A DNA stretch of 32,000 bases. Source: Chlamydiales bacterium (lineage in GTDB: Bacteria; Chlamydiota; Chlamydiia; Chlamydiales; SM23-39). Every line of letters starts with the position of its first letter. Within the stretch, counting starts at the first letter, position 1. The notes below the pieces were generated by a model, which ran no database searches, was not told the origin of the DNA, and was given only the letters and a program-made list of their open reading frames with translations. Where the stretch lies: the NCBI GenBank assembly GCA_965261025.1, contig OZ253438.1:900001-932000 (forward strand), in the 5' to 3' direction. Below, piece by piece: positions 1 through 19,805 of this stretch. The position numbers and the translations under genes were made by a program.

Positions 1-1275
1 CAACCAGGACAAGAAGAAAAATTTAAAAAGCTTACTCAAATAGAGAAAGTAAAAGAAATTGATGCCGATGAGAATAGAAAAAGGAAAAAACAAAGAGGAG
101 AACCAGAAGAGGAGGCCTCTTCTATGCAAAAATTTAGCTCTCCTATGGAAATCGCGAGAGAAAAAACCCCAAAAACAGATCTTTTTCGAAAAAACTTTTC
201 TGCCAAACAAGGTTTTGGATCCCCTGTTGCTTCAACTACTCCTTCTCCTTCTTTTTCTTCCGAATCAGAACCTACAGAAGGCCTTCCTTCTTCCAATCTG
301 TTTTGGCAAGGAGCGCCGTTAAATGCTCCTGAAAAAAAATCGGAGAGAAGCCTTAAAAAACCCTCGGAAAAATCCAAGGAACTCCCCTCAAAAAAATCTT
401 CAAAAGAAGAGAAAGTAGAGCCCTTTTTTGAAAAGGAGGAAATCTCTCCCACTCCTGTAGATCCTAAAAAAGCCTCTTCTAACACTAAGGAGGTAAAAGA
501 GTCTGTTTCCTCCCAGGAAAAAGAAGAAAAGCCCTTTGAAAAAAAACCACATATCCCTGCAAATAAGACTTCCTCTTTAGAGGAAAAAAGAAAAGATCCC
601 TCTTTTTCTACAGAAAAAAAGCCTCTTCGAAGAAAGAAAAAAAAGGAAATAAACGAGCCGATTACTCCAAAAAAAGAAGCCCCTTCTTTAAAGGAAAAAA
701 AGAAAGGAAGAAAAACTTCTTCTAAAACACCTTTAAAACATATCGCTGACAACTTTGCCCCTATGTTGGTTCTCCCTTCAGAAAACAAAGAGACTTCTTT
801 CCATAAAGAAGGGAAGAAAAAAGAAACACATCCTATAGCAGGGCTCGATTCCATAAAAATACCTCCTGAAATTGCGGCAGAAGGCCTCTCTGCCACTACA
901 AGTCTTCCTTCTTATATAAGCCCGCAAGTGCAAAATTTGTTTGCTCAAATGGTAAGCACCATCCTGGTCATGCAAACCAAAGAGATTGTTTCAACGCAAG
1001 TAGAACTAAACACTCCTTCCTTTGAAAAGTCGATCTTTAAAGGAGCTATCATTACTATAGATCGCTATTCCACAGCGCCTGGTTCTTTTAACATTCGCTT
1101 ATCTGGTTCTCCGGAAGCAGTACAACTTTTTGAAAAAAATATTTCTACACTACAAGCCGCTTTTCAAAAAGGAAAATTTTCTTTTCGAGTCTCTAGGCTA
1201 GAGACTTCTCTAAAGGAAGGGAGACCCTTAGTACAAAGAAAAGGCTCTTCTAAAGAAACAGGGGGAGGTTCTTAG
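1..1275 (+). CDS. sctP: T3SS needle-length / substrate-specificity-switch protein (SctP/CdsP-like), 5' partial
   Basis: Frame 1 is open from nt 1 (QPGQEEKFKKLTQIEK...) with no stop before the first ATG at 124, so the N-terminus lies upstream of the window. The first ~300 aa are K/E/S/P-rich low complexity. The C-terminal ~100 aa (LFAQMVSTILVMQ..VELNTPSF..FNIRLSGSPEAVQLFEKNISTLQAAFQKG) resemble the FliK/YscP T3S4 domain. The stop lies 1 nt before sctQ. Confidence 0.6.
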   Translation, partial: QPGQEEKFKKLTQIEKVKEIDADENRKRKKQRGEPEEEASSMQKFSSPMEIAREKTPKTDLFRKNFSAKQGFGSPVASTTPSPSFSSESEPTEGLPSSNLFWQGAPLNAPEKKSERSLKKPSEKSKELPSKKSSKEEKVEPFFEKEEISPTPVDPKKASSNTKEVKESVSSQEKEEKPFEKKPHIPANKTSSLEEKRKDPSFSTEKKPLRRKKKKEINEPITPKKEAPSLKEKKKGRKTSSKTPLKHIADNFAPMLVLPSENKETSFHKEGKKKETHPIAGLDSIKIPPEIAAEGLSATTSLPSYISPQVQNLFAQMVSTILVMQTKEIVSTQVELNTPSFEKSIFKGAIITIDRYSTAPGSFNIRLSGSPEAVQLFEKNISTLQAAFQKGKFSFRVSRLETSLKEGRPLVQRKGSSKETGGGS

Positions 1276-1276
1276 A

Positions 1277-2329
1277 GTGGACCTTTCCCTTTTTGAAAAG
1301 ATCAAACCTCTTTTACAGCTTACTGAAAAAAAAACTCTTTTAGGCTCTTCTGCTATTCCTTGGAAAGAAGTGGCCCAAACGATTGCTACAAACTGGAAAC
1401 TTTCCTCTTTAGGTATTTCTTGTAAAGAACAGAAAACCTGGAAAGAAACGGAGCTTCTTTTAGGATTTAGCGAAAATTTTTATTTAGTTTCTCTTCATTT
1501 TTCTCCTTTGGCAGGAAAAGTATTTTGGATCATGGATCATGCTGACCTGGCGAAATTATGCGCTGAATTTTTGATACAAAATGGACCACAAGACTTGCTT
1601 TTTTCTGAAATTTTACAAGAGAGTTTTTACCACTTTTTACTCACACAAGTTCTCTCCGATGTTGTAGAACATTCTTTCTTTCACAATTTCTCTCCTAAAA
1701 TAGCCTTTGAAAGTCCCCTTCCTGAACAAGCATGCTTTGGCACAGATATTCTTATAAAAACCCCAAAATATTCCCTTTGGGGAAGGCTTTTACTCACCTC
1801 TGATTTCGTATCTTCGTGGAATCATTATTTGCAAAAACACTTTCCCAAAGAAGAAATTTCCTTGGAAGACAAGCAAAAAGTAGTTTCTCTTTTGCTCTCT
1901 GTAGGCTCTTTTTCCCTTTCTGAAGAGACTTGGGAAAAAATAAAACCGGGGGACTTTATCACTCTAGAAGAAGTTTTCTATGATCCCCATCTTCAGGCAG
2001 GAACTGGAGTCCTCTTTTTGGAAAATATGCCTCTTTTTGAGGTAACCCTTTCTGAAAAAAAAGTAGAAATAACCCAAGCTCTTCTTCCCAAAAAACCAGG
2101 AGAAACTCTTTTTGAAGTACAAATCGCCCAAATACCTATAACTTTAGAAAAGCTCCTTTATCTAAAAACAGGTGCTCACTTGCCTTTTCCTATTTTGTCA
2201 GAAACTCTCTCTATTAATAGGGAAGGAAAAAAACTAGGAGAAGGCTCTTTTTACTACCTCGGAAACCGTCTTGGTATCTTACTACAAAAAAAGAATCTCC
2301 CTCCTTCTAAGTCCAAGAATTCATTTTAA
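1277..2329 (+). CDS. sctQ: T3SS cytoplasmic ring / sorting platform protein SctQ (CdsQ, YscQ/FliN family)
   Basis: GTG start 8 nt downstream of a GGGGGAGG Shine-Dalgarno. The C-terminal ~80 aa (FEVQIAQIPITLEKLLYLKTGAHLPFP...INREGKKLGEGSFYYLGNRLGILL) fit the SpoA/FliN surface-presentation-of-antigens domain. Position between the sctP-like gene and sctC matches the chlamydial cluster. Confidence 0.7.
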   Translation: MDLSLFEKIKPLLQLTEKKTLLGSSAIPWKEVAQTIATNWKLSSLGISCKEQKTWKETELLLGFSENFYLVSLHFSPLAGKVFWIMDHADLAKLCAEFLIQNGPQDLLFSEILQESFYHFLLTQVLSDVVEHSFFHNFSPKIAFESPLPEQACFGTDILIKTPKYSLWGRLLLTSDFVSSWNHYLQKHFPKEEISLEDKQKVVSLLLSVGSFSLSEETWEKIKPGDFITLEEVFYDPHLQAGTGVLFLENMPLFEVTLSEKKVEITQALLPKKPGETLFEVQIAQIPITLEKLLYLKTGAHLPFPILSETLSINREGKKLGEGSFYYLGNRLGILLQKKNLPPSKSKNSF

Positions 2330-2445
2330 GATTTATTTTAAAGGGTCTTTTTATTTACTTTTTTTTCTTTTCTAGACTATTATTTACGGAGTTTGTTTGC
2401 TAAAAGTTATTCTTTTTTTGAACGAACAAAAGCAGTAGACAACAT

Positions 2446-2474
2446 TTGCATTAATTTACAAGGTATTTTACGAT
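2446..2474 (+). promoter_or_regulatory. candidate sigma70-type promoter for sctC (TTGCAT-17 nt-TACGAT)
   Basis: Hexamers read directly in the 236-nt sctQ-sctC spacer, ~90 nt upstream of the sctC ATG. No experimental support. Confidence 0.25.
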
Positions 2475-2565
2475 GCAAAGACAAGGGGCTTGTACGAAGC
2501 AGGGGCTACCTTTTCGGGGCATCTTTAACCTTAAGTTTTGATGGGGCCAGTAGCGAATCCTCCTT

Positions 2566-5500
2566 ATGAAATGTGGTAGATGGGTTTTTCTTTTTTTCTT
2601 CTTGTGGATAACTCCTCTTCTCGCTACGAGCTCTGTTTCTGCAGAAGATCGGTTTACTATCAACTACACGAATGTTTCCATTCAAGAGTATCTAAAGTTT
2701 GTTAGTAAAATTACGGGTGTAAATTTTATCTACCAGGAGGAAGACTTAAACTTCTCTGTTTCTGTTTTATCTGAAGATCCTGTCACACCTGAAAATGTTT
2801 TAGCTACTTTGACTCAGGTTCTCCGCATTAATGGTCTTTTTTTGATGGAGGAAAAAGAGAGTCTAGTGATTCATAAAAATCCTGATGTCAGGCAGCCTGC
2901 TCCTTTGATGCTCGAAGGAGAAAAAAGGAAAAATACCTATCCGATGGCAACCAAGATCTTTCGGTTAAAACAAGCCCAAGCCTCTGCTGTAAGTGCCGTA
3001 GTTCGTCCGATGATCTCTTCTTCTGCGATTTTAGAAATTTTTGAATCAACTAATCAGCTAATTCTCACAGATATAACAGCTACTGTGGAGAAAGTCTCTT
3101 CTTTGATTGAAAATTTAGATTCTTCACAAACGCCTCTTTCCATAGAGCCTTTTCATGCAAAATATGAGGAAGTAGGTGTATTGATGGATTTGGGGACAAA
3201 AATCTTGGAACCGATTACAAAGGGCTCTCCTTTCCTTTTGGTACCTCAAACTTCCACCCAGGTAATCTTCATCGTCTCTAATTCTCCTTTAATTGAAAAA
3301 GCAATTAAGGTTCTCTCTGTTTTGGATGCCGAGGCAAAAAAACCGAAATACAAAACACTGAAATCAGAAAATGTCTTTATCTACAAGATAGAACACAGAA
3401 CCGTATCTGAAATTATGAGAAGCCTTCAGGCCATTGCAAGCAATATTCAAAAAAGGGGGTACATAGAAAGAGGGCTCTTGGAAACCATTGATAAAGCAAA
3501 ACCTATCGTAGAGAGTAATACCCTTCTTTTTACAGGAGATCCTTCTTCCTTAAATAAGGTTAGGGAGCTCTTACAAATTTTGGATGTTTCTTCGAAAGAA
3601 GAAGTAGAGTCTTCCGAAGATTCTTTTTTTGTATATAAACCCCTTTACGTCTCCCCTTCTCAAGTAGAAAGAGCTTTACAAGATGTAGCGGAGAGTTTGT
3701 TAAAATCCCCTTTAAAAGACCAGTCTCTTTTAAAGACGCTACAAAGCGCGAAGATAGTGCCTAGTACTCAATCGGTAATTTTTTCGGGAGATCCTACTAC
3801 CTTTTCTAAAGTAAAAGAGCTTTTAGCCTCTATTGATAATGCAGAGTCTGCCGAAGGGGAAGGAAACCATACTTTTTATGTGTACCAAATCCAGAATGTT
3901 CCTGAGGAAGTCTTGGCTGCTTCGTTAAAGAAACTCGCAAAAACCCTAGAGAAGGAAAAAAGTAAAAATACGGCCCTAGTGGAAGCTATTGACTCAATGA
4001 AATATCTGCCTGACACCAATTCTATTCTCTTTACAGGAACTCAGAGAGCTCTAGAGAGACTCAAAGAGCTCATTCCTTCCTTTGATCAAGGATTTGAAAA
4101 AGGAGCCTTGCAGAAAAGCTCTCAATTTTTAGTTTATAAACCCCAATATCTTTCAGGAAAAGAACTCCAAGAGGTGCTTGGTGATTTCATCTCCAATTTG
4201 CAAGATGCCAAATTAACAGACCCTAATCTTTTGCGTTCTTTACAAAGTATGCACTGGATAGACAAAACCCAGTCACTCATTTTTACAGGGGATACAGCTT
4301 CTTTACAAAAAGTCGAGGGATTATTAGCTACGGTTGATGTGCAAAATTCCCCTGCTGTGCCCGGGTTAAAAAGGACTTTTCTCATATACCAGCTTCAATA
4401 TGTGCCTGAAAAAAGCGTAGAAGACTATTTAAAAAAAGTATCTGACAACTTAACTAAAAAGAGCTTGAAAGAGGAAAACCTGGTAGAAGCTATCCGAACT
4501 ATGAGATGGATTCCTGAAGCGCATTCTTTTATGTTTTCCGGAACGCAAACTGCTTTAAACCAGATTAAACAACTTCTTACCAATTTTGATATTCCCGTAG
4601 ATAAAGCTTTTGCCGCTTCTAAGCCTAAATTTCTTTTGTATCCCTTACAAAATGTTTCGAAGGAAAGACTAGAAGCCTATTTACACCAAGTATCGCAAAA
4701 TTTGAATAGATCCGACATAGAGCAAAATAGTCTTTATAACACCATTCACTCTATGAAATGGATTTCAGAATCTCATTCTTTTATGTTTAATGGTAATGAG
4801 ACTTCTTTAGCAAAAGTACAAGAGCTCGTCTCCCATTTCGATACAACTACCCAGAAACAGGCACCTGAGAAAAGCACCTTTATCCTATATCCCTTAAAGT
4901 ATGTTTCTCAAAAACAAATGGATGCCTATCTCTCTTCCCTAGTAAAAAATCTAAAAAACTCAGGACTAGGAGAACAAGCCCTCATGGAGATTATTTCAGA
5001 GAGGAAATGGATTCAGGACTCTCATTCTTATATGTTTTCTGGTCCCCAAAATGTCTTAGATAGACTACAGGTTCTCTTAAAAGACTTTGATGAGCCTTCC
5101 GATGCAAGACAAGCGCAAGGATATTTCCTTTATAAGCTCGAAAACACCCCTGGAGATGTAATTGAAGAGGATTTGGAACGCTTTGCCAAGAACATGAAAG
5201 CCTCTGGCATGGGAAATACCAAGGTAATTCAAGTCATTGAAAACCTCAAATGGATCAAAGAAACGAATTCCATCCTCCTAACAGGAGATGCTTCTGCTAT
5301 AGAAGAGGTAAAAGCGCTTATTGTACAGTACGATATCCCCAGAAAATCTGGCTCAGTTCATAGTGAGTTCTACATGTACAAACCGCAATATGTAACCCCT
5401 CAGCAGCTACAAAAGTCTCTTTTGGATATTGCCAAGACGTTAAAACAGGGAGGACTGACAGACTCTTCTCTTCTAAGCGCTATCAACGGGATGAAATTTA

Positions 5501-7326
5501 GCAGTGAGACCTGTTCTGTTATCTTCACAGGTTCACAACAAACACTACAAAAGATTGAAGGCCTTATTAAAGAGGTGGATCTACCTTCTAGCAGGCAAAA
5601 AAAAGCACTGCAAAAATCGGGTTTTTTTCTCTACAAGCTAAAATTTGTTTCCGGAGAAAAGATGCTTACCTACTTAAAAGATATTACCGATGACTTAAAA
5701 AAATCCGGTTCTTCTGATCAGCAGTTTTTATCTGCTTTAACTAGTGTGCGTTTTGTACAAGAAACTAACTCTTTAGTCTTTACAGGATCTGATCCTTCTC
5801 TGGAAAGGGTAAAAGCTTTGGTGGAAAAATTTGATATTCCCTCTCTAACAGACCATCCTAAAGGAGAAGTCCCTTCTTCTTTTTTTGTATATAAACCTGT
5901 TTATGTCTCGGGAAGTGGCCTAGAGAAAATGCTTTTAGATTTTGCAGATAACCTAAAGGAACAAGGACTGTATGATCCTGCCTTGTATCAAACGATCCGT
6001 TCTATGAAGTGGATTACTTCCACGAAGAGTTTGGTATTTACAGGGGATAAAAACACTCTTGCTCAAGTCAAAGATCTCTTGCAGCTTTTTGATACTCCTC
6101 AAGAAGGACAACCTTTTTCTGATGGCTCTATTCAACCCATCGACAATACTAGCTTTTTGGTATACAAGCTTCAATATCACAAAGGGACAGAAATCCAAAA
6201 TGCACTAAGGCAAATTGCAAAAGATTTTGATAATAATAAAACGCAAGTAAACAAAGAGCTTCTACTAGCTATTCAGTCTATCCAGTGGTTAGAGGTAACT
6301 AATTCTCTTCTTTGTACAGGTCCTCAAGAAACCCTAACTCGGTTAAAAGAGCTCATCAAAAATTTAGATGTTCCTTTAAAGCAGGTATTCATAGAGGTAC
6401 TGGTCATTCAAACTTCTCTTGCCAATATTTTAACTTTTGGACTGGATTGGACGAGCAATTTTAAGCACAAAGATAAGTTTTCTGGGAAACTGCAGAACTC
6501 CTCTAACACTACGAGTAATTTCTTATCCAATTTTGACACAGTAAATGCAACCACTTCCCCTGCCCCTACTTTGATTCCCAACCTTCAACCTAGTTTTGAG
6601 TTGGGAGTAATAGGAGATATTATTCTTCATAGGGGACGCTCCTTTATTTCGATGGGATCTTTATTAAGAGCTCTGCAAAAGGACCAAGAAACCACTATAG
6701 TGACTACCCCAAAACTTCTTACGCAAGATAATAAGCAGGCCAGTATTTTCATTGGGCAAAATGTTCCCTATGCGGGTTCTTTTGTGAGAAATGAAGGACA
6801 AAATACTGTCATTAACCAAAATCTGGAATATAGAGATATTGGAATGAATCTTACTATTACCCCCGTCTTAGGAAATTCTGATATAGTTACCTTAGACATC
6901 CAGCTTAACTCTAGTTCTATAGCAACAGATGCTTTGGGAAATACAGATACAAACATCATCAATAATCAGGGAGTTAGCGGTATTACTACCAGTAAAACCA
7001 ATTTAAATACCACTGTCCATGTTCCCAATGAAAGCTTTTTAGTGCTCAGTGGTATGGTGGATATCACAAAGACAGAGAGAAAAGAAGGGATCCCCTGTCT
7101 GGGAGGACTTCCCTATCTTGCTTCTGCTTTTTCCGTAGCAAGTAAAGGAGATACTCGGTCTAACATCGTGGTTTTTATAAGACCTCATATTATCCACTCC
7201 TATGAAGATGTGAAAAAGATCACAGAAGAGCAAGAAGATGCTTTCCGAGAGCAAACAGGTTCTCCTCGCTTAGAAAAAGAATTTGATGAAGCCATGGAGT
7301 ACATCAAAGGAGAAGAAGACAGGTAA
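2566..7326 (+). CDS. sctC: Giant type III secretion outer-membrane secretin (SctC/CdsC) with expanded periplasmic N-domain array
   Basis: 1586-aa ORF. It has an N-terminal signal peptide (MKCGRWVFLFFFLWITPLLATSSVSA) and an N0-like domain (INYTNVSIQEYLKFVSKITGVNFIY...). Many Secretin_N-like units follow. The C-terminal secretin pore domain runs VFIEVLVIQTS...LEYRDIGMNLTITP...IPCLGGLPYLASAF...NIVVFIRPHII. Assigned to T3SS rather than T2SS by its position after sctQ. Confidence 0.9.
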   Translation: MKCGRWVFLFFFLWITPLLATSSVSAEDRFTINYTNVSIQEYLKFVSKITGVNFIYQEEDLNFSVSVLSEDPVTPENVLATLTQVLRINGLFLMEEKESLVIHKNPDVRQPAPLMLEGEKRKNTYPMATKIFRLKQAQASAVSAVVRPMISSSAILEIFESTNQLILTDITATVEKVSSLIENLDSSQTPLSIEPFHAKYEEVGVLMDLGTKILEPITKGSPFLLVPQTSTQVIFIVSNSPLIEKAIKVLSVLDAEAKKPKYKTLKSENVFIYKIEHRTVSEIMRSLQAIASNIQKRGYIERGLLETIDKAKPIVESNTLLFTGDPSSLNKVRELLQILDVSSKEEVESSEDSFFVYKPLYVSPSQVERALQDVAESLLKSPLKDQSLLKTLQSAKIVPSTQSVIFSGDPTTFSKVKELLASIDNAESAEGEGNHTFYVYQIQNVPEEVLAASLKKLAKTLEKEKSKNTALVEAIDSMKYLPDTNSILFTGTQRALERLKELIPSFDQGFEKGALQKSSQFLVYKPQYLSGKELQEVLGDFISNLQDAKLTDPNLLRSLQSMHWIDKTQSLIFTGDTASLQKVEGLLATVDVQNSPAVPGLKRTFLIYQLQYVPEKSVEDYLKKVSDNLTKKSLKEENLVEAIRTMRWIPEAHSFMFSGTQTALNQIKQLLTNFDIPVDKAFAASKPKFLLYPLQNVSKERLEAYLHQVSQNLNRSDIEQNSLYNTIHSMKWISESHSFMFNGNETSLAKVQELVSHFDTTTQKQAPEKSTFILYPLKYVSQKQMDAYLSSLVKNLKNSGLGEQALMEIISERKWIQDSHSYMFSGPQNVLDRLQVLLKDFDEPSDARQAQGYFLYKLENTPGDVIEEDLERFAKNMKASGMGNTKVIQVIENLKWIKETNSILLTGDASAIEEVKALIVQYDIPRKSGSVHSEFYMYKPQYVTPQQLQKSLLDIAKTLKQGGLTDSSLLSAINGMKFSSETCSVIFTGSQQTLQKIEGLIKEVDLPSSRQKKALQKSGFFLYKLKFVSGEKMLTYLKDITDDLKKSGSSDQQFLSALTSVRFVQETNSLVFTGSDPSLERVKALVEKFDIPSLTDHPKGEVPSSFFVYKPVYVSGSGLEKMLLDFADNLKEQGLYDPALYQTIRSMKWITSTKSLVFTGDKNTLAQVKDLLQLFDTPQEGQPFSDGSIQPIDNTSFLVYKLQYHKGTEIQNALRQIAKDFDNNKTQVNKELLLAIQSIQWLEVTNSLLCTGPQETLTRLKELIKNLDVPLKQVFIEVLVIQTSLANILTFGLDWTSNFKHKDKFSGKLQNSSNTTSNFLSNFDTVNATTSPAPTLIPNLQPSFELGVIGDIILHRGRSFISMGSLLRALQKDQETTIVTTPKLLTQDNKQASIFIGQNVPYAGSFVRNEGQNTVINQNLEYRDIGMNLTITPVLGNSDIVTLDIQLNSSSIATDALGNTDTNIINNQGVSGITTSKTNLNTTVHVPNESFLVLSGMVDITKTERKEGIPCLGGLPYLASAFSVASKGDTRSNIVVFIRPHIIHSYEDVKKITEEQEDAFREQTGSPRLEKEFDEAMEYIKGEEDR
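3367..6384 (+). repeat. 12 tandem, diverged coding repeats (~243-270 nt, 79-90 aa each) inside sctC, each a secretin N-domain-like unit
   Basis: Unit starts are at nt 3367, 3619, 3868, 4120, 4372, 4624, 4873, 5119, 5362, 5620, 5878 and 6148. The recurring pattern is xF[FL][VIL]YK[PL]xYV..(helix)..L..D..L...I.SM.WI..TNSL.FTG....L..V..L...[FL]D. Similarity is at the protein level; at DNA level only short codon islands recur (for example ttt aca ggn for F-T-G). Confidence 0.85.
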
Positions 7327-7466: not shown

Positions 7467-7495
7467 TTGACGAATTCCCAATCTATCTCTAACAT
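7467..7495 (+). promoter_or_regulatory. candidate sigma70-type promoter (TTGACG-17 nt-TAACAT) for the TPR-lipoprotein / YidD-like pair
   Basis: Near-consensus -35 and an acceptable -10 at 17-nt spacing, ~38 nt upstream of the ATG at 7533. The TTG that the ORF track uses as a start at 7467 is the -35 element itself. Confidence 0.3.
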
Positions 7496-7532
7496 CGGCC
7501 TTGAGCAGGAAGTTAGCATTTCTTTTTATCAC

Positions 7533-8483
7533 ATGTCCTTTTATAAAAAACTGGTTTCTTTTCTTATTTTTTCTTGCTTTTTCTCTTCTTGCTACAGAGT
7601 TTCCGATACCATTGAACCCAAAGTAAATCCTCAAATCGAAGCTTCGTACTTGCATTCTCTTTCTTCTCCTTTTCCTCCTCTTTCCTATGAGGAAAAAAAT
7701 AGTGATTGGGGTAAGGAGTACAGAATAGGGCTAGATTTTGCAAAGCAGCTAGATCTGTATCGAGCTGTTTCTACGTTCAAAAGAGCGGCTGTTTTAGTAG
7801 ATGAGGAAGAAAGAGCTTTGCAAATTCACTACTTCATCTGCTTTTGTTATTACCTTGGGAAAAAATATGAAGAAGTGATTACCCATTTTGAAAAGTCGAA
7901 TTTACCTCATATCGATGCCAGTTTTCCTGCCTATCAAGATCTTCTTGTTTTTTTATATGAATCTTATGTAGAGCTTAATGATATAGAAAAAGCAGAATGT
8001 ATTTTTCATCTCATTCAAAAAAAAGATCCCAAAAAAGGGGAAAAACTCAAAGTTTCTTCTTCTCTGCTCCACGGAAATATTTATGAACTAGAAAAACTCT
8101 CTAAAATCCCCCCCTATGACAGCTACCTCCCTCCTCTTTTAAAAAGCTATCACGCCCAAAAAAAATCGGTTTCTAAAGCACAAGGATTAAATGCCCTTTT
8201 ACCGGGAGCGGGATATTATTATTTAGGTATGAAGAAAACTGCTAGTACCGCTTTTTTATTAAATGGACTTTTCCTTTACGCTTCCTATCATTTTTTCAAA
8301 AATGGCCCCTTGGCTGCGGCTATTATTACCACCAGCTTTGAAATGGGTTGGTACTTTGGAGGTATCTATGGAGCGGGCGAGGAAGCCAAATTCTACAATG
8401 AAAGACTTTACGAAAAACAAGCAACTCCTATTATGAACAAAAGGAAGCTTTTTCCTGTTTTGATGTTAGAATATGGTTTTTAG
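7533..8483 (+). CDS. TPR-like repeat protein with putative lipoprotein signal and two C-terminal TM helices
   Basis: The ATG at 7533 gives MSFYKKLVSFLIFSCFFSSCYRVS: a basic n-region, a hydrophobic core and two candidate lipobox cysteines (imperfect lipobox). The middle has TPR-like helical repeats (YRAVSTFKRAA, YYLGKKYEEVITHFEKS, IEKAECIFHLIQKKDP). The C-terminus is hydrophobic (LLPGAGYYYLGMKKTASTAFLLNGLFLYASYHFF..AAAIITTSFEMGWYFGGIYGAG). Confidence 0.6.
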   Translation: MSFYKKLVSFLIFSCFFSSCYRVSDTIEPKVNPQIEASYLHSLSSPFPPLSYEEKNSDWGKEYRIGLDFAKQLDLYRAVSTFKRAAVLVDEEERALQIHYFICFCYYLGKKYEEVITHFEKSNLPHIDASFPAYQDLLVFLYESYVELNDIEKAECIFHLIQKKDPKKGEKLKVSSSLLHGNIYELEKLSKIPPYDSYLPPLLKSYHAQKKSVSKAQGLNALLPGAGYYYLGMKKTASTAFLLNGLFLYASYHFFKNGPLAAAIITTSFEMGWYFGGIYGAGEEAKFYNERLYEKQATPIMNKRKLFPVLMLEYGF

Positions 8484-8919
8484 AATTATCTTTTTTATTT
8501 TTACCTTTATTAGCCTTTTTGCAGAGCAAGGATTTCATGTTCCTTGGGGAAAAGATCATGACTTAAAAGTTCTCTCTAAAAAGGTAGAAAAAAAAAGCTC
8601 TTTTGCTGCTAAAACGGCAGGAGGAGTCATCCGTTTTTATCAAAATTACCTATCTCCAACTACAGGGGCAAGAAGTAATTTTCGCCCCACTAGCTCTAGA
8701 TATATGCAGCTTGCTATTCAAAGATATGGATTTTTGAAGGGTTTTGTTATGGGCTGTGACCGTCTTTTAAGAGAAAATAATGAAGACTGGATTTATCCTA
8801 CTTTGGGAAAAGACCGGGGAGGTTATAAATACGACCCTGCTTTTTTTCATAAAAGACTTTCTAAAATAGAGCGATTTACTCCACTATCTCCTGAGCTTTC
8901 AGACAGGCTTTCCAGGTAG
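8473..8919 (+). CDS. YidD-fold (membrane protein insertion efficiency factor-like) protein, cysteine-less variant with N-terminal signal/TM segment
   Basis: VIRFYQNYLSPTTGARSNFRPTSSRYMQLAIQRYGFLKGFVMGCDRLLRENN...GGYKYDP aligns by eye with E. coli YidD ([38 protein letters not shown]...RVLKCHP..GGDDP). The three conserved Cys are replaced by S, S and E. The start overlaps the upstream gene by 11 nt. It carries an N-terminal hydrophobic segment (MVFRIIFFIFTFISLFA). Confidence 0.65.
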   Translation: MVFRIIFFIFTFISLFAEQGFHVPWGKDHDLKVLSKKVEKKSSFAAKTAGGVIRFYQNYLSPTTGARSNFRPTSSRYMQLAIQRYGFLKGFVMGCDRLLRENNEDWIYPTLGKDRGGYKYDPAFFHKRLSKIERFTPLSPELSDRLSR

Positions 8920-12134: not shown

Positions 12135-15100
12135 TTATAAGGACTTTCTTTGAAAAAGCGTTATAAGCTCCTCTCGAGTTAAAAGCCGGATTTGATCCAT
12201 ATCATCTTTTCCCACCGTCGACTCTAAGAGAAATTTCTTCTTATGAATTAAGGCGCTAATGGCTTCTTCAATGGTTCCTTTAGTAACCAGCTTAAATACT
12301 TGAACCCCCCTCCTTTGCCCAATTCTGTGCACTCTATCTGTTGCCTGATCTTCCTTGGCAGCGTTCCACCATCTATCATAATGTATTACCACGGAGGCAC
12401 AGGAAAGATCGATTCCTACACCTGCTGCCAATAAGGAAGCTAAAAAGATCTTACAAGAAGGATCTTGATGGAATTTTTGCATCTCCGCTTTTCTATCCTT
12501 GGTACTACCTGTTAAACAAGAAAAATTCACTCTCTTTTTCCGAAAAAACTTTTTAAAAATTTCGATCATATCTAGATATTGGGAAAAAATGACTACCTTC
12601 TGATCCGAGTCTAAAGCTTCTTCTATAAGCTCCTCAAATACCTCCCACTTTCCTGAAGTGTGTTTTTCATATTCTTTTGCTGTTTTTAAAAGAACGCTCG
12701 GATGATCGCAGAGCTGTTTTACTTGAGAAAGAAAAGAAAAAATAGGAACTATGGGAACTTGATGAGACTGACCCTGTAAAAGCTGTAATATATGTTCCCT
12801 TCTTTTTTCTACCAGTTCCTCATAAAGCTTTTTTTGTTCTTCGGAAAGATCACAGAAAACAATCTGTTCTATCTTCTCGGGAAGATCTAAAAGAACCTCT
12901 TCTTTTTTTCTACGTAGCGTAAAAGGCTTAATGAGTTTAGCAAGGAGTTTTCTTTTCTCTAAGTCTCTATTTTTCTCTATAGGAATTTCAAAAAATTCCC
13001 GAAAAACAGAAGGAGAAGGAAGATAGTTAGGAAGCACTATGTCAAAAAGAGCTTTTAACTCTTTAATTCTATTTTCCACAGGAGTCCCTGTAAGACCCAA
13101 TTTCATACTGGCTTCTATATGGATAAGATTTTGATGGGTCTGTGACTTGACATTTTTTGCAAACTGTATTTCATCCAGTATAGCTATTTCAAAAGGATAT
13201 CCTTTAAAGTTTTCTTTCCCAGTTCGTAAAATTCCATAAGAGGTTACCAAAACATCATAATCTTTAGGAAATCCACTTAAAGACCTATTTATTCCATGAT
13301 AGACTAAGACTCTTAAGGAAGGCAGGTATCTTTGTAAAAGATCTTGCCAATGATAAATAACAGAAGTGGGACATACGATTAAGTATTTATGAGAAGGCTC
13401 TTCTTGAAAAGAAGCGGCTAAAAGGGCCATTGCCTGGTGAGTCTTCCCCAGTCCCATATCATCACATAAGATCCCTGCAAGACCATGACAATAAAGATGC
13501 CAAAGCCACTGTAGGCCTATCTCTTGGTAAGGTCTTAAAGAAGAACTTAAACGGCTTATATCCAAAAGTCTTTTGGTATCCATTTGAAATAGTTTTTCTA
13601 AAAGATTTCTGGTTTTCCTTGCCTCTTCTGTATCTTCTAAAGGAGGATCAATCTGCTCCAAAATACTCAGTCGAATCCACTCTATAAAACTCAGTTTTAC
13701 CAGTTTTTCTTTTGGATAAACTTTTTTCTTTCCCCAATTTTTTACCCATTGAAACCTTGTTTGATCTAAATAGAGAAGGCCTGCTTTGGAAAAAAGCATC
13801 TTTTTTTTCTGCTGCAAAGCTTGCCAAACTTCTAGTAAAGAAATCTCTCCTATTTCTGTAGATACTTTGATATCCGCTAGTAAAAAAGTCTTTTTTTTCC
13901 TCTTTTTTACGTAAAGAGATTCTAGCTTTAGTTGAAATTTTTGGGGGCTTTTTAGTTCAGGATCTATATGAACTAAAAAAGGGCGCAGTTTTTCCATTTC
14001 ATACTGCATGAAAAAAGTCTCCTCTTTGGGAGCTATTTCTTTTTTTTGGGCATACTGAGAAGGGAGTTTCCCTTTTTCAGAAATGTCAAAAAAACCTTCT
14101 CCTTCTACGTAAGTATAGTGAGAAAACCAAATTACTTTTTCAGGAGAGTATCCTTCTTCATAAGCTACCTGTGGTTTTACCTGTATTTTCTTATCTTCGG
14201 TAAAAAAAAGGGCTATCCCCACTCTTTTCACCGGTGATTTTTCCGAAAAAAATCCATCAATCCAAAAAAGTTCTTCTTTTTTCTGTTCTAAAAAAGAAGC
14301 TATTTCTCCTGCTTTGATCTTCTTTTCTAAAAGAGTAAACGAAAACTCCTTTCCCTCTTTTTGAAAAAAACCCTTATTGGGCAAAAAAACCCATTTTCCG
14401 AAGTCTAAAATTTTCCCTTTTATTTCTCCTAAGGAGTGAAAAAACTCTAAGTTTTTCTCCGCATCAATCCTGTAGTGAACAAAGGTTTGTAAAAGATGAA
14501 TATGCGTCTGAAATCCCGGGTATGCCTCTAGAAAAATTCGATTTTTTGTAATAAATTCAGAAACCTCCTCCCTCTTTACGATAGTATGTAGAGATGGAAA
14601 ATGAGGCATCTGTACCTGAAAAAATCCTTTCTGAGGAAGATATATCCAAGGAGGGAAAAAAAGCGCCTTTTCCCATTTCAAATCCTTTTCTTCGGAAAGA
14701 TAGGCTTTTATATGGAAAGCTTGCCTTTCATCAAAAAACAGTTCATAACAGAGCTTATGTAAAGAGGTATTTACAGAAACATTTAAATATCTTTGAAAAA
14801 GAGAAGGATAGAAGGAAAGGGCTTCTGCTATTTTTCCTTCTTGAATCGTTTCTTCTCTCAGTAAGGGATGGACTATTTTACGATAAAAACCTCTGTGGGC
14901 AAGATAGACCCAATCTCCTATTTCTATTCCCCCTTCTAAAGCTTTTTTCTCTCTTTGTTTTTGTATAACAAAACAAGGAACTTCCGGAAGAAACACAATA
15001 GGGGGAAATTCCTCTTTTTTTTCCCTGATCTTTAAAGAAGCATTCACGGTGGATAAAGACTCAATTACGGGAGGGGTTAAAAGATTTTCTAAAAAAACCT

Positions 15101-15800
15101 CTAAGAAAAGCTCAGGAAATTGTACTTGCACCTTTTGAGGGATGTTTTCCGAAGGAGGGAAAACTATCTCATAGGACTTTTCTTCTTCTTGCTGTAAAAA
15201 AAACCACTTTGCTAAATCAGACCAAAAAGACAGTTCAAAACGGAGAAAAGAAGAAGCCCTTCCCCTTTTATAAAGCAAAAGCTCCTCCTTAGAAAGATTT
15301 ACAAACTTTAGGGAAGTTTCTTCTGTTTCTATTTTTCTTTCGGAGAAAATTTCCTTCAGTTTCTTTTTGTTTTCAAAAGAACTTCCCAGAAGATAGAAGC
15401 TCTTTTTTTCCTTTTCAGAAAACGCAACATAGGCCTCCTTTTCCTGTATCAAATTTCCTACATCATACCCAATGTTTCTAGAGGCTTCTTCAAAAAGATA
15501 GAACCAAAAAGATCTATGGAAGCGAACATGCAAAGGTTCTCGGTGTCCTGAAAAAATTTTTAAAAAAGCGGCTGCTATATGAGGACATCCCCTATTTTTG
15601 GTAGAATGTTCACAACTACAAAAGGCATCCAGATACCCTCCCTTATCGTCAAACTGACAAAAAGGCCAGTAGGATCTACCGTCTTTTATTTCTACCTGAT
15701 AGGTTCCCCTAGAAAAATGAAATTCTCCCAGTTTTTTCTCTTCAAGAAGCTTCTTTCCTTCTGGGAAAAACTGGGTAATTGCTTCTGGAATTTGCATCAA
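12135..15800 (-). CDS. SWIM zinc-finger / SNF2-family helicase (bacterial SWI2/SNF2 ATPase)
   Basis: N-terminal SWIM motif (CSCEHSTKNRGCPHIAAAF). SNF2 motif I (LCDDMGLGKTHQ), a DExx box (ILDEIQFAKN) and a helicase-C region (GGVGIDLSCASVVIHYDRWWNAAKEDQATDRVHRIGQ). Confidence 0.85.
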   Translation of the reverse strand: MMQIPEAITQFFPEGKKLLEEKKLGEFHFSRGTYQVEIKDGRSYWPFCQFDDKGGYLDAFCSCEHSTKNRGCPHIAAAFLKIFSGHREPLHVRFHRSFWFYLFEEASRNIGYDVGNLIQEKEAYVAFSEKEKKSFYLLGSSFENKKKLKEIFSERKIETEETSLKFVNLSKEELLLYKRGRASSFLRFELSFWSDLAKWFFLQQEEEKSYEIVFPPSENIPQKVQVQFPELFLEVFLENLLTPPVIESLSTVNASLKIREKKEEFPPIVFLPEVPCFVIQKQREKKALEGGIEIGDWVYLAHRGFYRKIVHPLLREETIQEGKIAEALSFYPSLFQRYLNVSVNTSLHKLCYELFFDERQAFHIKAYLSEEKDLKWEKALFFPPWIYLPQKGFFQVQMPHFPSLHTIVKREEVSEFITKNRIFLEAYPGFQTHIHLLQTFVHYRIDAEKNLEFFHSLGEIKGKILDFGKWVFLPNKGFFQKEGKEFSFTLLEKKIKAGEIASFLEQKKEELFWIDGFFSEKSPVKRVGIALFFTEDKKIQVKPQVAYEEGYSPEKVIWFSHYTYVEGEGFFDISEKGKLPSQYAQKKEIAPKEETFFMQYEMEKLRPFLVHIDPELKSPQKFQLKLESLYVKKRKKKTFLLADIKVSTEIGEISLLEVWQALQQKKKMLFSKAGLLYLDQTRFQWVKNWGKKKVYPKEKLVKLSFIEWIRLSILEQIDPPLEDTEEARKTRNLLEKLFQMDTKRLLDISRLSSSLRPYQEIGLQWLWHLYCHGLAGILCDDMGLGKTHQAMALLAASFQEEPSHKYLIVCPTSVIYHWQDLLQRYLPSLRVLVYHGINRSLSGFPKDYDVLVTSYGILRTGKENFKGYPFEIAILDEIQFAKNVKSQTHQNLIHIEASMKLGLTGTPVENRIKELKALFDIVLPNYLPSPSVFREFFEIPIEKNRDLEKRKLLAKLIKPFTLRRKKEEVLLDLPEKIEQIVFCDLSEEQKKLYEELVEKRREHILQLLQGQSHQVPIVPIFSFLSQVKQLCDHPSVLLKTAKEYEKHTSGKWEVFEELIEEALDSDQKVVIFSQYLDMIEIFKKFFRKKRVNFSCLTGSTKDRKAEMQKFHQDPSCKIFLASLLAAGVGIDLSCASVVIHYDRWWNAAKEDQATDRVHRIGQRRGVQVFKLVTKGTIEEAISALIHKKKFLLESTVGKDDMDQIRLLTREELITLFQRKSL

Positions 15801-19034: not shown

Positions 19035-19805
19035 ATGTTCGAGAATTTGAAGATTATTTTAGAAATACAAGAACTTGATATGAATATGATCAGTTTGGTT
19101 CGTCTAAAAAGACAGAGACAAAAGGAATTGCAACATATCGATCGGTTAAGAAATGATTTGAAAGAACAACTGGAAGAAAAAGAGAAGGAAATTGCGGACC
19201 TTAGCCATAGCGTTGTGTTTCAGGAAAATAAAATTACGGAAATAGAAGAGAAGTTAAAGAAGCTAGAAGTAAAGCAATCTTCTGTAAAGAAGGTGGATGA
19301 ATTTAACGCCCTTACTCAAGAAATGACCTCTTGTGAAAGGGAAAAAGTAGCCACAGAACAGATTGCAAGTGATTTAATTGATAAAAGAAACCTGGAAGAG
19401 GAGATCTTAACAAAAATTCAAGAAAGTTTAAGAGAATCTGAAGAAGGCAGCAAAGCTTTAGAAGAAGAGATCTACACTAGCATCAAGAAAATCAATGTAG
19501 AAGGATCTGAGTTAAAAGAAAAGAGAGAACTTCTTTCCCAGAAAGCTCCTTCTGAACTCCTACGAATCTATGAAAGACTTTTATATAACAAAAAAGATCG
19601 GGTAGTAGTTCCCATTGAAAATAGGGCCTGTTCGGGATGTCATATCGCTTTAACAGCTCAACATGAAAATCTCGTGAGAAAAGGAGAGAGGCTCATTTTT
19701 TGTGAACACTGCTCTAGAATCCATTACTGGATTGAAAATGAAGATCTGGAAAGTTCTTCTGTAACAGGAAAGAAAAGACGAAGAAGAAGAACGGCTAGCG
19801 TTTAG
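19035..19805 (+). CDS. Coiled-coil protein with C-terminal C4 zinc ribbon (COG1579/DUF164-like, putative nucleic-acid binding)
   Basis: A long heptad-rich E/K region is followed by CSGCH..(22 aa)..CEHC and a polybasic tail (GKKRRRRRTASV). Confidence 0.7.
   Translation: MFENLKIILEIQELDMNMISLVRLKRQRQKELQHIDRLRNDLKEQLEEKEKEIADLSHSVVFQENKITEIEEKLKKLEVKQSSVKKVDEFNALTQEMTSCEREKVATEQIASDLIDKRNLEEEILTKIQESLRESEEGSKALEEEIYTSIKKINVEGSELKEKRELLSQKAPSELLRIYERLLYNKKDRVVVPIENRACSGCHIALTAQHENLVRKGERLIFCEHCSRIHYWIENEDLESSSVTGKKRRRRRTASV

What the first reader, a model, noticed from the sequence alone, without database searches (positions are those of the whole stretch)
3367..6384. T3SS secretin with 12 tandem N-domain-like units (15 periplasmic domains in total)
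The sctC ORF is 1586 aa. After the signal peptide come an N0-like domain (aa ~30-105) and two Secretin_N-like units (aa ~128-186 and ~193-255). I then count 12 back-to-back copies of a 79-90 aa unit before the pore domain (VFIEVLVIQTS..., from nt ~6385). Unit starts are nt 3367, 3619, 3868, 4120, 4372, 4624, 4873, 5119, 5362, 5620, 5878 and 6148. Each unit reads strand (xFF/LVYKPxYV), helix, a ~20-aa extra segment (L..D..L...I.SM.WI), strand (TNSLxFTG), helix (L..V..L...FD). This is the spacing of the secretin ring-building N domain plus an insert. The copies are strongly diverged at DNA level, so this is an old, maintained expansion rather than an assembly duplication. Units 5-7 share W-I-x-[ED]-[AS]-H-S-[FY]-M-F and look like a younger sub-expansion. 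As far as I know, characterised T3SS secretins have N0/N1/N3 and T2SS secretins have N0-N3. From memory, Chlamydia CdsC is ~900 aa. If every unit forms a ring in the secretin oligomer, the periplasmic conduit would be several-fold longer than in known injectisomes. That would imply an unusually wide or compressible periplasm, or extra docking rings.
Basis: partly seen in the sequence, partly recalled or inferred. Interest (0 to 1): 0.8.

Follow-up and report, generated by a model that had tools for sequence, protein, structure and literature searches.

The report
Extra-long chlamydial injectisome secretin
An environmental chlamydia's type III secretion outer-membrane channel carries 15 periplasmic domains instead of the usual 3-4, and across related genomes the number of extra domains rises and falls with the length of the neighbouring protein in the needle tape-measure position, which suggests unusually long injection machines whose length can change over evolution.

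Summary
Window 2566-7326 (+) encodes a 1586-aa secretin: signal peptide, N0, two plain N-domains, 12 in-register units of 79-90 aa, then the pore. The units average 30% protein and 46% DNA identity, so this is not an assembly duplication. Every unit's best Pfam hit is Secretin_N. AlphaFold gives a confident beta-alpha-(extra alpha)-beta-beta-alpha fold, and its best PDB matches are secretin N-domains.

The protein looks GspD-like by sequence but sits in a T3SS cluster (SctD...SctN-SctO-SctP?-SctQ-secretin). This agrees with the published statement that chlamydial injectisomes use a T2SS-like secretin.

The array is not unique to this genome. 245 GTDB species genomes, those named being Chlamydiota, encode a relative. 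Unit number ranges from 1 (Chlamydiaceae-type) to 21. The backbone is 1-2-3-4...8-9-A-B-C, with a copy-variable cassette (U5-7 here).

New evidence: the ORF in the SctP ruler position lengthens by 26-34 aa per secretin unit (r = 0.83-0.86, p <= 4e-11). The trend survives phylogenetic contrasts, and SctD, SctN, SctO and SctQ stay flat. This supports stacked units that lengthen the conduit, but that remains an inference.

I found no published description. Verdict: new variant of a known kind; interest about 0.6.

The parts
124..1275 (+). ORF in the SctP/CdsP (needle tape-measure) position. It is at least 383 aa. Its reading frame is open to the start of the window, so the 5' end may be cut off. 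It has a low-complexity K/E/P/S-rich middle and a conserved C-terminal domain of about 110 aa.
   Evidence: Synteny between SctO and SctQ in L003 and about 40 other loci. Anatomy. PF02120 (FliK hook-length control) matches weakly in 11 of 42 members, and no other family recurs. Weak in-register hhalign match to C. trachomatis CdsP, E = 0.017. No Pfam or NCBIfam hit for the window copy itself.
1277..2329 (+). SctQ/CdsQ (C-ring / sorting platform)
   Evidence: FliMN_C E = 9.9e-5. NCBIfam PRK05933 'type III secretion system protein' 3.2e-11 and TIGR02551 SctQ 1.5e-7, both below their curated cutoffs.
2566..7326 (+). Injectisome secretin (SctC/CdsC lineage, T2SS-like sequence type), 1586 aa
2566..2643 (+). 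Probable Sec signal peptide (aa 1-26, ...SVSA|ED)
   Evidence: Read directly from the translation. No signal-peptide predictor was run.
2662..2874 (+). N0 domain (aa 33-103)
   Evidence: PF21305 GspD N0, 44 bits. AF2 model. Foldseek match to XcpQ/GspD N0-N2.
2944..3117 (+). Plain N-domain, N1-like (aa 127-184), beta-alpha-beta-beta-alpha with no extra helix
   Evidence: Secretin_N 39.8 bits. AF2.
3139..3324 (+). Plain N-domain, N2-like (aa 192-253). No Pfam hit, but the model shows a beta-alpha-beta-beta-alpha fold.
   Evidence: No family found. AF2 pLDDT about 80-87 in this segment. The model as a whole matches XcpQ N0-N1-N2 at E = 1e-15.
3367..6384 (+). Twelve tandem N-type units U1-U12 (aa 268-1273), each with an inserted helix between alpha1 and beta2
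4372..5118 (+). U5-U7: the copy-number-variable 'HSFMF' cassette (0-5 copies in homologues)
   Evidence: Unit-type mapping across 120 homologues.
6148..6384 (+). U12, in the position of the canonical N3 domain next to the pore. It is the one unit retained in Chlamydiaceae-type CdsC and in the 533-aa minimal form.
   Evidence: Aligns to the region of GspD just before the secretin domain. Co-linear with CdsC-type fragments.
6385..7326 (+). Secretin pore domain plus C-terminal tail (Pfam Secretin aa 1369-1543)
7467..8483 (+). Conserved lipoprotein (lipobox ...F-S-S-C, Cys42 of the listed ORF; the likely true start is the ATG at nt 7533) with a TPR-like region and a hydrophobic C-terminus. Candidate secretin assembly factor.
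   Evidence: Conserved directly downstream of the secretin and upstream of yidD in the window, L003, L085 and L086. Only weak TPR hits. The function is an inference.

Best explanation
This is the outer-membrane secretin of a chlamydial type III injectisome. It belongs to the T2SS-like secretin lineage that Chlamydiae recruited into their T3SS.

Its periplasmic part is a GspD-like N0-N1-N2 head, then eleven extra copies of an N3-type domain (each with one inserted helix), then the N3-position unit U12, then the pore.

I propose that in the oligomer each unit forms one more ring, as N1-N3 do in solved secretins. The periplasmic conduit would then lengthen roughly in proportion to unit number. 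A compact 84-aa domain is about 2.8 nm across (my estimate from its mass). The ruler slope implies 4-6 nm per unit. On those figures this protein's conduit would be tens of nanometres longer than that of a four-domain secretin.

Unit number changes over evolution by tandem gain and loss, mainly in the U5-7 cassette. The protein in the SctP tape-measure position changes length in step, which would let the needle still clear the longer basal body.

What is shown: the domain content, the fold, the T3SS context, the distribution, purifying selection, and the co-variation.

What is inferred: ring formation by every unit, the actual conduit length, the ruler function of the neighbouring ORF, and the biological reason. 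A plausible reason is that the machine must span a wide or variable periplasm in elementary bodies.
For: Domain content and fold.

T3SS context. Loci holding SctN, SctO, the ruler-position ORF and SctQ upstream are tabulated and seen again.

T2SS-like lineage: and Abby & Rocha 2012 (PMC3459982).

Homology to Chlamydia-type CdsC: 31% identity over 409 aa, E = 1e-57.

Selection on every unit.

Co-variation:
- The ruler-position ORF lengthens by 33.7 +/- 3.7 aa per unit (n = 39, r = 0.83, p = 4e-11). SctQ, SctO, SctN and SctD have slopes between -1.7 and +3.7 aa per unit.
- Phylogenetically independent contrasts give 33.0 aa per unit, r = 0.84, p = 4e-11, with flat controls.
- All 6 sister pairs that differ in unit number change ruler length in the same direction.
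- The trend appears in both major clades, which expanded different unit types.
- Out of sample, the 21-unit loci carry the longest rulers seen, 670 and 700 aa against a previous maximum of 599.

Literature: Nans 2015 (PMC4682100) report that needle length scales linearly with SctP size, that CdsP is the chlamydial tape measure, and that the C. trachomatis basal body (34 nm) is elongated and length-adaptable through the linked periplasmic domains of CdsC and CdsD.

SctD length is constant at 565-632 aa, so any extra span would have to come from the secretin.
Against: - No oligomer was modelled or imaged, so ring formation by 14 successive N-type domains is extrapolated from 2-3 rings in solved secretins.
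- A fully stacked 15-domain conduit of at least about 42 nm exceeds the widest periplasm reported for C. trachomatis EBs (about 29 nm). I could not obtain any measurement for environmental chlamydiae, because Pilhofer 2014 is not held.
- The ruler identity rests on synteny and architecture. Sequence support is weak.
- The 21-unit points fall at or below the lower edge of the 95% prediction interval of the linear fit (700-951 aa), so scaling is sub-linear at the extreme.
- L012 and L017 have 10 units but rulers of only 324 aa.
- The control genes contain no repeats or low-complexity regions, so a lineage-wide tendency to expand such regions is not fully excluded.
- The Chlamydiaceae-type system (1 unit, CdsP 283 aa) lies above the regression line. 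It also carries a separate hydrophilic N-terminal extension (250 residues in C. trachomatis).
Confidence: 0.6

Rival explanations
1. The extra units do not stack into a long rigid tube. Joined by hydrophilic linkers of 8-15 residues, they would form a compressible or partly folded-back 'accordion', or a set of docking sites for other periplasmic components. The basal body would then be only modestly longer than in Chlamydia, but could adapt to a periplasm whose width differs between reticulate and elementary bodies.
For: Nans 2015 observed 34-to-29 nm compaction of the C. trachomatis basal body and attributed it to linked periplasmic domains. Inter-unit linkers have lower confidence in the AF2 model, with pLDDT about 62-71. 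The two-domain model superposes on solved N-domain pairs only at TM about 0.4, so the relative orientation of the units is undetermined. Ruler scaling is sub-linear at 21 units.
Against: Ruler length still tracks unit number at 22-34 aa per unit in both clades. That is hard to explain if the units add no length. All units are under purifying selection comparable to the pore, so their fold is maintained. That result does not discriminate between stacking and docking.
Confidence: 0.25
2. The unit-ruler correlation is a by-product and not a functional coupling. Lineages with more permissive genome dynamics (larger genomes, more slippage or unequal crossing-over) would independently expand both the secretin repeats and the low-complexity middle of the neighbouring ORF.
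For: The ruler's variable part is low-complexity K/E/P/S-rich sequence that is prone to indels. The control genes used (SctQ, SctO, SctN, SctD) have no such regions. L012 and L017 are outliers.
Against: The correlation survives independent contrasts, and the sign agrees in 6 of 6 sister pairs. It recurs in two clades that expanded different unit types. Every secretin unit is under purifying selection, not drifting. The ruler-needle length relation is established in other injectisomes (cited).
Confidence: 0.1
3. The gene is really the type II secretion secretin GspD, as its best NCBIfam match says, and the repeat belongs to a T2SS.
For: TIGR02517 GspD scores 451 bits, above its cutoff of 351. 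The SctC model scores 117, below its cutoff of 238. The pore and N0-N2 are closest to T2SS structures. Some sources label homologues 'GspD/PulD'.
Against: No gspE, gspF or gspG lies nearby. The gene follows sctQ in the window. In relatives it follows sctD...sctN-sctO-ruler-sctQ, with pkn5 in some. It is co-linear with Chlamydia-type CdsC fragments. The literature states that all chlamydial NF-T3SS use a T2SS-like secretin and lists SctC and GspD as separate chlamydial protein clusters. Part of the GspD score is inflated because 7 stretches of the repeat match the model's N-domains.
Confidence: 0.03
4. The repeat count is an assembly artefact (collapsed or expanded repeats).
For: The source is an uncultured-organism assembly. 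One related locus (L084) does have a frameshifted secretin.
Against: The units share only about 46% DNA identity and there is no DNA-level tandem repeat, so assemblers cannot confuse them. An independent assembly at 83% protein identity, and another at 60%, have the same 12 units in the same order. The identical protein is recorded on a 1.42-Mb contig.
Confidence: 0.02

Closest known systems
Chlamydia trachomatis CdsC (SctC, CT674; 921 aa), the injectisome secretin imaged in situ by Nans et al. 2015
   Same: Same machine and the same T2SS-like secretin lineage. U12 plus the pore align co-linearly with Chlamydia-type CdsC fragments (31% identity over 409 aa, E = 1e-57), with shared motifs such as 'SIQWL(E/Q)V(T/N)NS' and 'D(V/L)P(L/P)KQV'. 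The gene neighbourhood is the same: sctQ, then pkn5 in some genomes, then the secretin.
   Different: CdsC is described as a 250-residue hydrophilic N-terminal domain plus classical N-domains. A Chlamydiaceae-type relative reconstructs as a hydrophilic extension, N0, two plain N-domains, ONE U-type unit and the pore. The window protein lacks the hydrophilic extension and has 12 U-type units, so its pre-pore region is 1273 aa against about 595 aa.
Type II secretion secretin GspD/PulD/XcpQ (N0-N1-N2-N3-secretin; e.g. PDB 5wq7, 5wq8, 3ezj, 5mp2)
   Same: Best sequence and structure matches for the pore (E = 1.9e-29), for N0-N1-N2 (E = 1e-15) and for the repeat units. It exceeds the GspD equivalog cutoff.
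   Different: It has 14 N-type domains instead of 3. The units carry an extra helix. The genomic context is T3SS, not gsp.
Classical T3SS secretins InvG/MxiD/YscC/EscC (N0-N1-N3-secretin, about 560-610 aa)
   Same: Same role in the injectisome, and the same N-domain fold.
   Different: Only a distant sequence relation (E = 9e-11 and 5e-8 for the pore). It scores below the SctC equivalog cutoff. It is about 2.6 times longer and has 15 periplasmic domains against 3.
YscP/FliK-type molecular rulers (SctP family)
   Same: The neighbouring ORF has the same gene position (between sctO and sctQ) and the same three-part architecture: an N-terminal region, a variable spacer, and a conserved C-terminal domain. 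Several members give weak FliK-domain hits. Its length varies with the size of a structural part of the machine.
   Different: No significant sequence or solved-structure match. In the classical rulers, as I understand them, length tracks the extracellular needle or hook. Here it tracks the domain number of the secretin. The 21-unit lineage has two paralogues, one long and one short.

Membership tests
Secretin superfamily (Pfam PF00263) | C-terminal secretin pore domain above the Pfam gathering score | tested here: met
   122.4 bits against a cutoff of 27.5, aa 1369-1543. Homologous to solved secretins.
Secretin N-domain (Pfam PF03958 Secretin_N) - each of the 12 units | Profile match of each unit on its own | tested here: met
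   All 12 units have Secretin_N as their best and only credible hit (E from 5.6e-11 to 1.6e-3). Five of the 12 exceed the 28.2-bit gathering score alone (U1, U2, U3, U10, U12); the others score 19-27.7 bits. The whole protein scores 294 bits.
Secretin N-domain (Pfam PF03958 Secretin_N) - each of the 12 units | beta-alpha-beta-beta-alpha (KH-like) fold matching solved secretin N-domains | tested here: met
   AF2 pLDDT 89. The top Foldseek hits, all at probability 1.0, are GspD, XcpQ and InvG N-domains. Tested for U5, U6 and U1 only. The other units are inferred from the gap-free alignment.
Secretin N-domain (ring-building function) | Forms a stacked homo-oligomeric ring in the assembled channel | not testable with these tools
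   No oligomer prediction or imaging was available. The only support is indirect, from ruler co-variation.
T3SS secretin SctC (NCBIfam TIGR02516 equivalog) | Score above the curated equivalog cutoff | tested here: not met
   116.8 bits against a cutoff of 238.45. This is expected, because chlamydial T3SS secretins have a different (T2SS-like) origin.
T3SS secretin SctC (functional role in an injectisome) | Encoded within a T3SS core-gene cluster | tested here: met
   sctQ lies immediately upstream in the window. The order sctD, TPR chaperone, sctN, sctO, ruler-position ORF, sctQ, secretin is seen in L003 and recurs in dozens of loci.
Chlamydial CdsC lineage | Co-linear homology to Chlamydia CdsC across the N3 domain and the pore | tested here: met
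   31% identity over 409 aa, E = 1e-57, to P0124, which is 65% identical to the OCR-derived C. trachomatis CdsC fragment. A full-length C. trachomatis CdsC could not be retrieved.
T2SS secretin GspD (NCBIfam TIGR02517 equivalog) | Score above the curated equivalog cutoff | tested here: met
   451.1 bits against a cutoff of 351.35, in 7 stretches, so the score is partly inflated by the repeat.
T2SS secretin GspD (functional role in a T2SS) | Genomic association with gspE/F/G and related genes | tested here: not met
   No gsp genes were found among the window ORFs scanned or among the ten L003 flank ORFs scanned. The context is T3SS.
SctP/FliK molecular ruler (for window ORF 124-1275) | Gene position between sctO and sctQ | tested here: met
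SctP/FliK molecular ruler (for window ORF 124-1275) | C-terminal T3S4 / FliK-type substrate-switch domain | tested here: inconclusive
   PF02120 hits 11 of 42 members, with a best E of only 0.029. hhalign to the CdsP C-terminus gives E = 0.017 at low probability. No PDB, NCBIfam or named-homologue match.
SctP/FliK molecular ruler (for window ORF 124-1275) | Protein length determines needle length | not testable with these tools
   Only the correlation with secretin unit number is available.

The most novel reading that the evidence does not exclude
Copy number of the secretin N-domain acts as an evolvable length setting for the injectisome. On this reading, environmental chlamydiae build basal bodies with 9 to 24 stacked periplasmic rings (N0 plus 2 plus 6-21 units). 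These would be two to three times longer than any injectisome so far imaged. Each ring gained or lost would be matched by about 26-34 residues in a tape-measure protein, so secretin and ruler co-evolve as a length-matched pair.
Probability: 0.45. Interest if true: 0.8.

Novelty: new variant of a known kind. Interest (0 to 1): 0.62.

Why it matters
Injectisome basal bodies are usually treated as having a fixed architecture. [quoted passage not shown]

These data show that most chlamydial diversity encodes secretins of 1200-2270 aa whose periplasmic domain number varies more than three-fold. The Chlamydia model system sits at the short end, with a single unit.

If the units stack, three things follow:
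- It would be a natural experiment in how a trans-envelope machine adapts to periplasm width.
- It would give a clear case of co-evolution between a structural scaffold and its ruler.
- It makes a simple, testable prediction for cryo-ET of culturable environmental chlamydiae: basal-body length is proportional to SctC unit number.

There is also a practical point. Annotation pipelines label these proteins GspD, or only 'secretin N-terminal domain-containing protein', which hides a T3SS component.

Tried and rejected
- Tandem Repeats Finder on the gene found no repeat, because the units are too diverged at DNA level.
- Pilhofer et al. 2014, the cryo-ET study of Parachlamydia, Protochlamydia and Simkania injectisomes, is the paper most likely to hold basal-body lengths. 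It is not held under either its DOI or its PMC id.
- A search with an OCR-derived C. trachomatis CdsC fragment returned only fragments and no full-length CdsC. The Chlamydiaceae unit count therefore rests on a reconstructed, frameshifted relative (L084) and on the published domain description.
- The ruler C-terminal profile against PDB gave no hit, NCBIfam gave none, and the last protein search gave 4 unnamed hits.
- P0127, the minimal form with N0 plus one unit, was meant as an extreme test of ruler scaling. Its locus is not a T3SS cluster, so no ruler could be read.
- The 15-unit P0074 lies on a 6-kb contig with no flank.
- The T2SS reading and the assembly-artefact reading were considered and rejected (see rival explanations).
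- The 2026 preprint that models the C. trachomatis injectisome gives no domain-level description of CdsC that I could use.
Full report
**1. The observation**

Window 2566-7326 (+) is a single 1586-aa ORF. They cut the region aa 268-1273 into twelve units of 79-90 aa, which align in register with almost no gaps.

Pairwise identity among the units is 20-41% (mean 30%) at protein level. It averages 46% (maximum 57%) at codon-aligned DNA level. Tandem Repeats Finder reports no array. The repeat is therefore old and cannot be an assembler duplication.

Pfam on the whole protein gives Secretin_N at 294 bits in 12 stretches, the Secretin pore domain at aa 1369-1543, and a GspD-type N0 at aa 32-98. 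Scanned singly, each of the 12 units has Secretin_N as its best and only credible hit (E from 5.6e-11 to 1.6e-3). Five units exceed the gathering score on their own.

**2. Fold**

AlphaFold2 on U5-U6, with a 40-sequence alignment, gave mean pLDDT 89. Each unit is strand, helix, extra short helix, strand, strand, helix. Foldseek against the PDB returns secretin periplasmic domains as the top hits at probability 1.00: ETEC GspD N0-N2, XcpQ, V. cholerae GspD and InvG. KH-domain proteins follow, which fits my recollection that secretin N1-type domains have a KH-like fold.

A second model of aa 26-351 (pLDDT 81) shows N0 (aa 33-103) and then two plain beta-alpha-beta-beta-alpha domains at aa 127-184 and 192-253. 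U1 follows, with the extra helix. The second plain domain has no Pfam hit, but its fold is clear. The model as a whole matches XcpQ N0-N1-N2 at E = 1e-15, with target-normalised TM 0.53-0.56.

The 'extra segment' is a loop plus helix of about 15 residues. All twelve units have it, and the two plain N-domains lack it.

**3. T2SS or T3SS?**

By sequence the protein looks like GspD. TIGR02517 scores 451 bits (cutoff 351) and the SctC model 117 bits (cutoff 238). The U12-plus-pore region matches T2SS GspD structures at E about 1e-29, against 9e-11 for InvG and 5e-8 for MxiD.

The context, however, is T3SS. The ORF immediately upstream (1277-2329) is SctQ. In the closest relative with a long flank (L003, 83% identical) the order is CdsD/SctD, a TPR chaperone, a 203-aa ORF, the SctN ATPase, SctO, a 444-aa ORF, SctQ, and then the secretin. 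Dozens of other loci repeat this order.

The literature resolves the conflict. 'All Chlamy NF-T3SSs include a T2SS-like secretin' (Abby & Rocha 2012), and Nans et al. 2015 say the same of CdsC. U12 plus the pore align co-linearly with Chlamydia-type CdsC fragments at 31% identity over 409 aa, E = 1e-57.

The best description is a GspD-like N0-N1-N2, then eleven inserted units, then U12 in the N3 position, then the pore.

**4. Distribution and evolution**

The first protein search returned 186 relatives. The best 120 are 1187-2266 aa with the same N0 + Secretin_N + Secretin architecture. Where a source names them, the name is Chlamydiales, Chlamydiota or Chlamydiia in all but one case (one MAG is labelled Verrucomicrobia).

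An HMM built from the twelve units counts 7-21 units in these proteins, with a mode of 9. A scan of one genome per GTDB species found 245 species with a relative. In the best 80 loci (those given a taxon are nearly all Chlamydiota: Parachlamydiales, Simkaniaceae, Rhabdochlamydiaceae, Neptunochlamydia, with three labelled Verrucomicrobia) the count is 6-14.

Mapping every homologue's units onto the window's units shows a conserved backbone, 1-2-3-4 ... 8-9-A-B-C. Between U4 and U8 lies a variable cassette of U5/6/7-type ('HSFMF') units:
- none in the commonest 9-unit form;
- one in many 10-unit forms;
- three in this window;
- five in the 14-unit forms.

A second group of proteins, 33-35% identical to the window protein, instead multiplied mainly U3-like units, up to 21.

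At the other end of the range, a Chlamydiaceae-type relative (L084, with the order sctQ-pkn5-secretin) reconstructs as signal peptide, hydrophilic proline-rich extension, N0, two plain N-domains, one U-type unit and the pore. This is consistent with the published description of CdsC. A 533-aa form with N0 plus one unit also exists.

Comparing the window gene with L003 gives dN of 0.04-0.18 per unit. That brackets the values for the pore (0.095) and N0 (0.106). Synonymous sites are saturated, and gene-wide dN/dS is about 0.05. All units are maintained by selection.

**5. Mechanism: a new line of evidence**

If the units add length to the conduit, something else in the machine should scale with them. 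I recorded the lengths of the genes upstream of the secretin in every locus with enough flank.

The ORF between SctO and SctQ occupies the position of the SctP tape measure, called CdsP in C. trachomatis. It lengthens by 33.7 +/- 3.7 aa per secretin unit (n = 39, r = 0.83, p = 4e-11). Median lengths run from 318 aa at 7 units to 595 aa at 14. SctQ, SctO, SctN and SctD have slopes between -1.7 and +3.7 aa per unit.

Several checks support the trend:
- Phylogenetically independent contrasts, on a tree built from the non-repeat parts of the secretin, give 33.0 aa per unit, r = 0.84, p = 4e-11, with flat controls.
- All six sister pairs that differ in unit number change ruler length in the same direction.
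- The trend holds within both major clades, at 29.1 +/- 4.8 and 21.9 +/- 5.3 aa per unit.
- Out of sample, the two 21-unit loci carry the longest such ORFs seen, 700 and 670 aa. These lie at or below the lower edge of the 95% prediction interval (700-951 aa). The combined fit is 26.1 +/- 2.5 aa per unit, r = 0.86, p = 5e-13.

The ORF has ruler architecture. It has a short conserved N-terminus, a low-complexity K/E/P/S-rich middle that holds all the length variation, and a conserved C-terminal domain of about 110 aa.

Sequence evidence that this C-terminal domain is a T3S4/FliK-type domain is weak:
- PF02120 hits 11 of 42 members, with a best E of 0.029. It is the only family that recurs.
- hhalign to the CdsP C-terminus gives E = 0.017.
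- There is no PDB, NCBIfam or named-homologue match.

**6. Size estimates (inference)**

At 0.15 nm per residue (alpha-helical rise) to 0.19 nm per residue (the YscP figure from Journet 2003, quoted from memory), 26-34 residues correspond to about 4-6 nm per unit. A compact 84-aa domain is about 2.8 nm across, which I estimated from its mass. With a linker of 8-15 residues, that is the same order of size.

Fifteen stacked domains would need at least about 42 nm. For comparison, the whole C. trachomatis basal body is 34 nm and its EB periplasm is about 29 nm at the T3SS pole.

SctD length is constant, so the secretin alone would have to provide the extra span.

I could not obtain any in-situ measurement for environmental chlamydiae. 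The stacked-ring, long-conduit reading is therefore my best explanation at confidence 0.6. A compressible or docking array is the main rival.

**7. Novelty**

Eight full-text searches found no description of multi-unit chlamydial SctC, and none of secretin-ruler co-scaling. The accessible literature treats the 921-aa CdsC as the largest T3SS secretin.

The proteins themselves are in public databases in large numbers, under generic or GspD labels. This window is thus one ordinary member of a large family whose shared peculiarity appears not to have been described.

I rate it a new variant of a known kind, with interest about 0.6. The remaining uncertainty is that subscription-journal papers I could not read, Pilhofer 2014 above all, may already mention it.

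Noticed in passing
window 124-1275 (+); L003:7378-8712; about 40 further loci: The ORF in the SctP/CdsP ruler position lengthens by 26-34 aa per secretin unit across chlamydial genomes (r = 0.83-0.86). SctD, SctN, SctO and SctQ do not. In the window this ORF's reading frame is open to nt 1, so its 5' end may lie outside the window.
   Followed up: yes
L085:4278-6380 and 6377-7033; L086:4337-6349 and 6346-7017: In the 21-unit-secretin lineage the ruler-type gene is duplicated in tandem. A long copy (700 or 670 aa) and a short copy (218 or 223 aa) both carry the conserved C-terminal domain (E about 1e-31 to the A4 profile). Two rulers in one injectisome cluster is unexplained.
   Followed up: partly
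window 7467-8483 (+), followed by yidD at 8473-8919: A conserved lipoprotein (lipobox ...FSSC, GSC or SSC, then xVSDxIEP) with a TPR-like middle and a hydrophobic C-terminus directly follows the secretin and precedes yidD. This holds in the window, L003, L085 and L086, even though the secretins are only about 35% identical. It is a candidate pilotin or assembly factor, whereas the literature says no pilotin is encoded in the C. trachomatis T3SS operons.
   Followed up: partly
L081:10001-11602 (P0127): A complete 533-aa secretin of the same lineage (44% identity over U12 plus the pore) has only N0 + one unit + pore. It sits outside any T3SS cluster, next to a DUF5399 gene. Its role (T3SS, T2SS or other) is unknown.
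   Followed up: partly
window 2330-2565; L084:7364-8893; L085:8238-9842; L086:8252-9856: A Pkn5-like Ser/Thr kinase gene lies between sctQ and the secretin in the Chlamydiaceae-type locus and in the 21-unit loci. It is absent from the window and from L003, where only a gap of about 240 nt separates the two genes.
   Followed up: no
L012 and L017: These sister loci are outliers to the unit-ruler trend. They have 10 secretin units, but the ruler-position ORF is only 324 aa (about 455 aa expected).
   Followed up: no
window 4873-5361 (U7-U8): U7 and U8 are the most conserved units between the window and L003 (dN 0.048 and 0.043; 90-93% aa identity), more conserved than the pore. U8 is the first unit after the variable cassette.
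   Followed up: no
window 19035-19805 (+) and 12135-15800 (-): A CT398-like coiled-coil/zinc-ribbon protein and a 1221-aa SNF2-family helicase lie among otherwise housekeeping genes (der, clpP, dapF, glyA, xer, lon, dnaJ). This is consistent with, though not proof of, a chlamydial chromosome. No tRNA genes occur in the 32 kb.
   Followed up: no
L003:14853-16604 (-): The closest relative has a 583-aa ORF with no Pfam hit inserted between the secretin and the downstream lipoprotein gene. The window has no such ORF.
   Followed up: no
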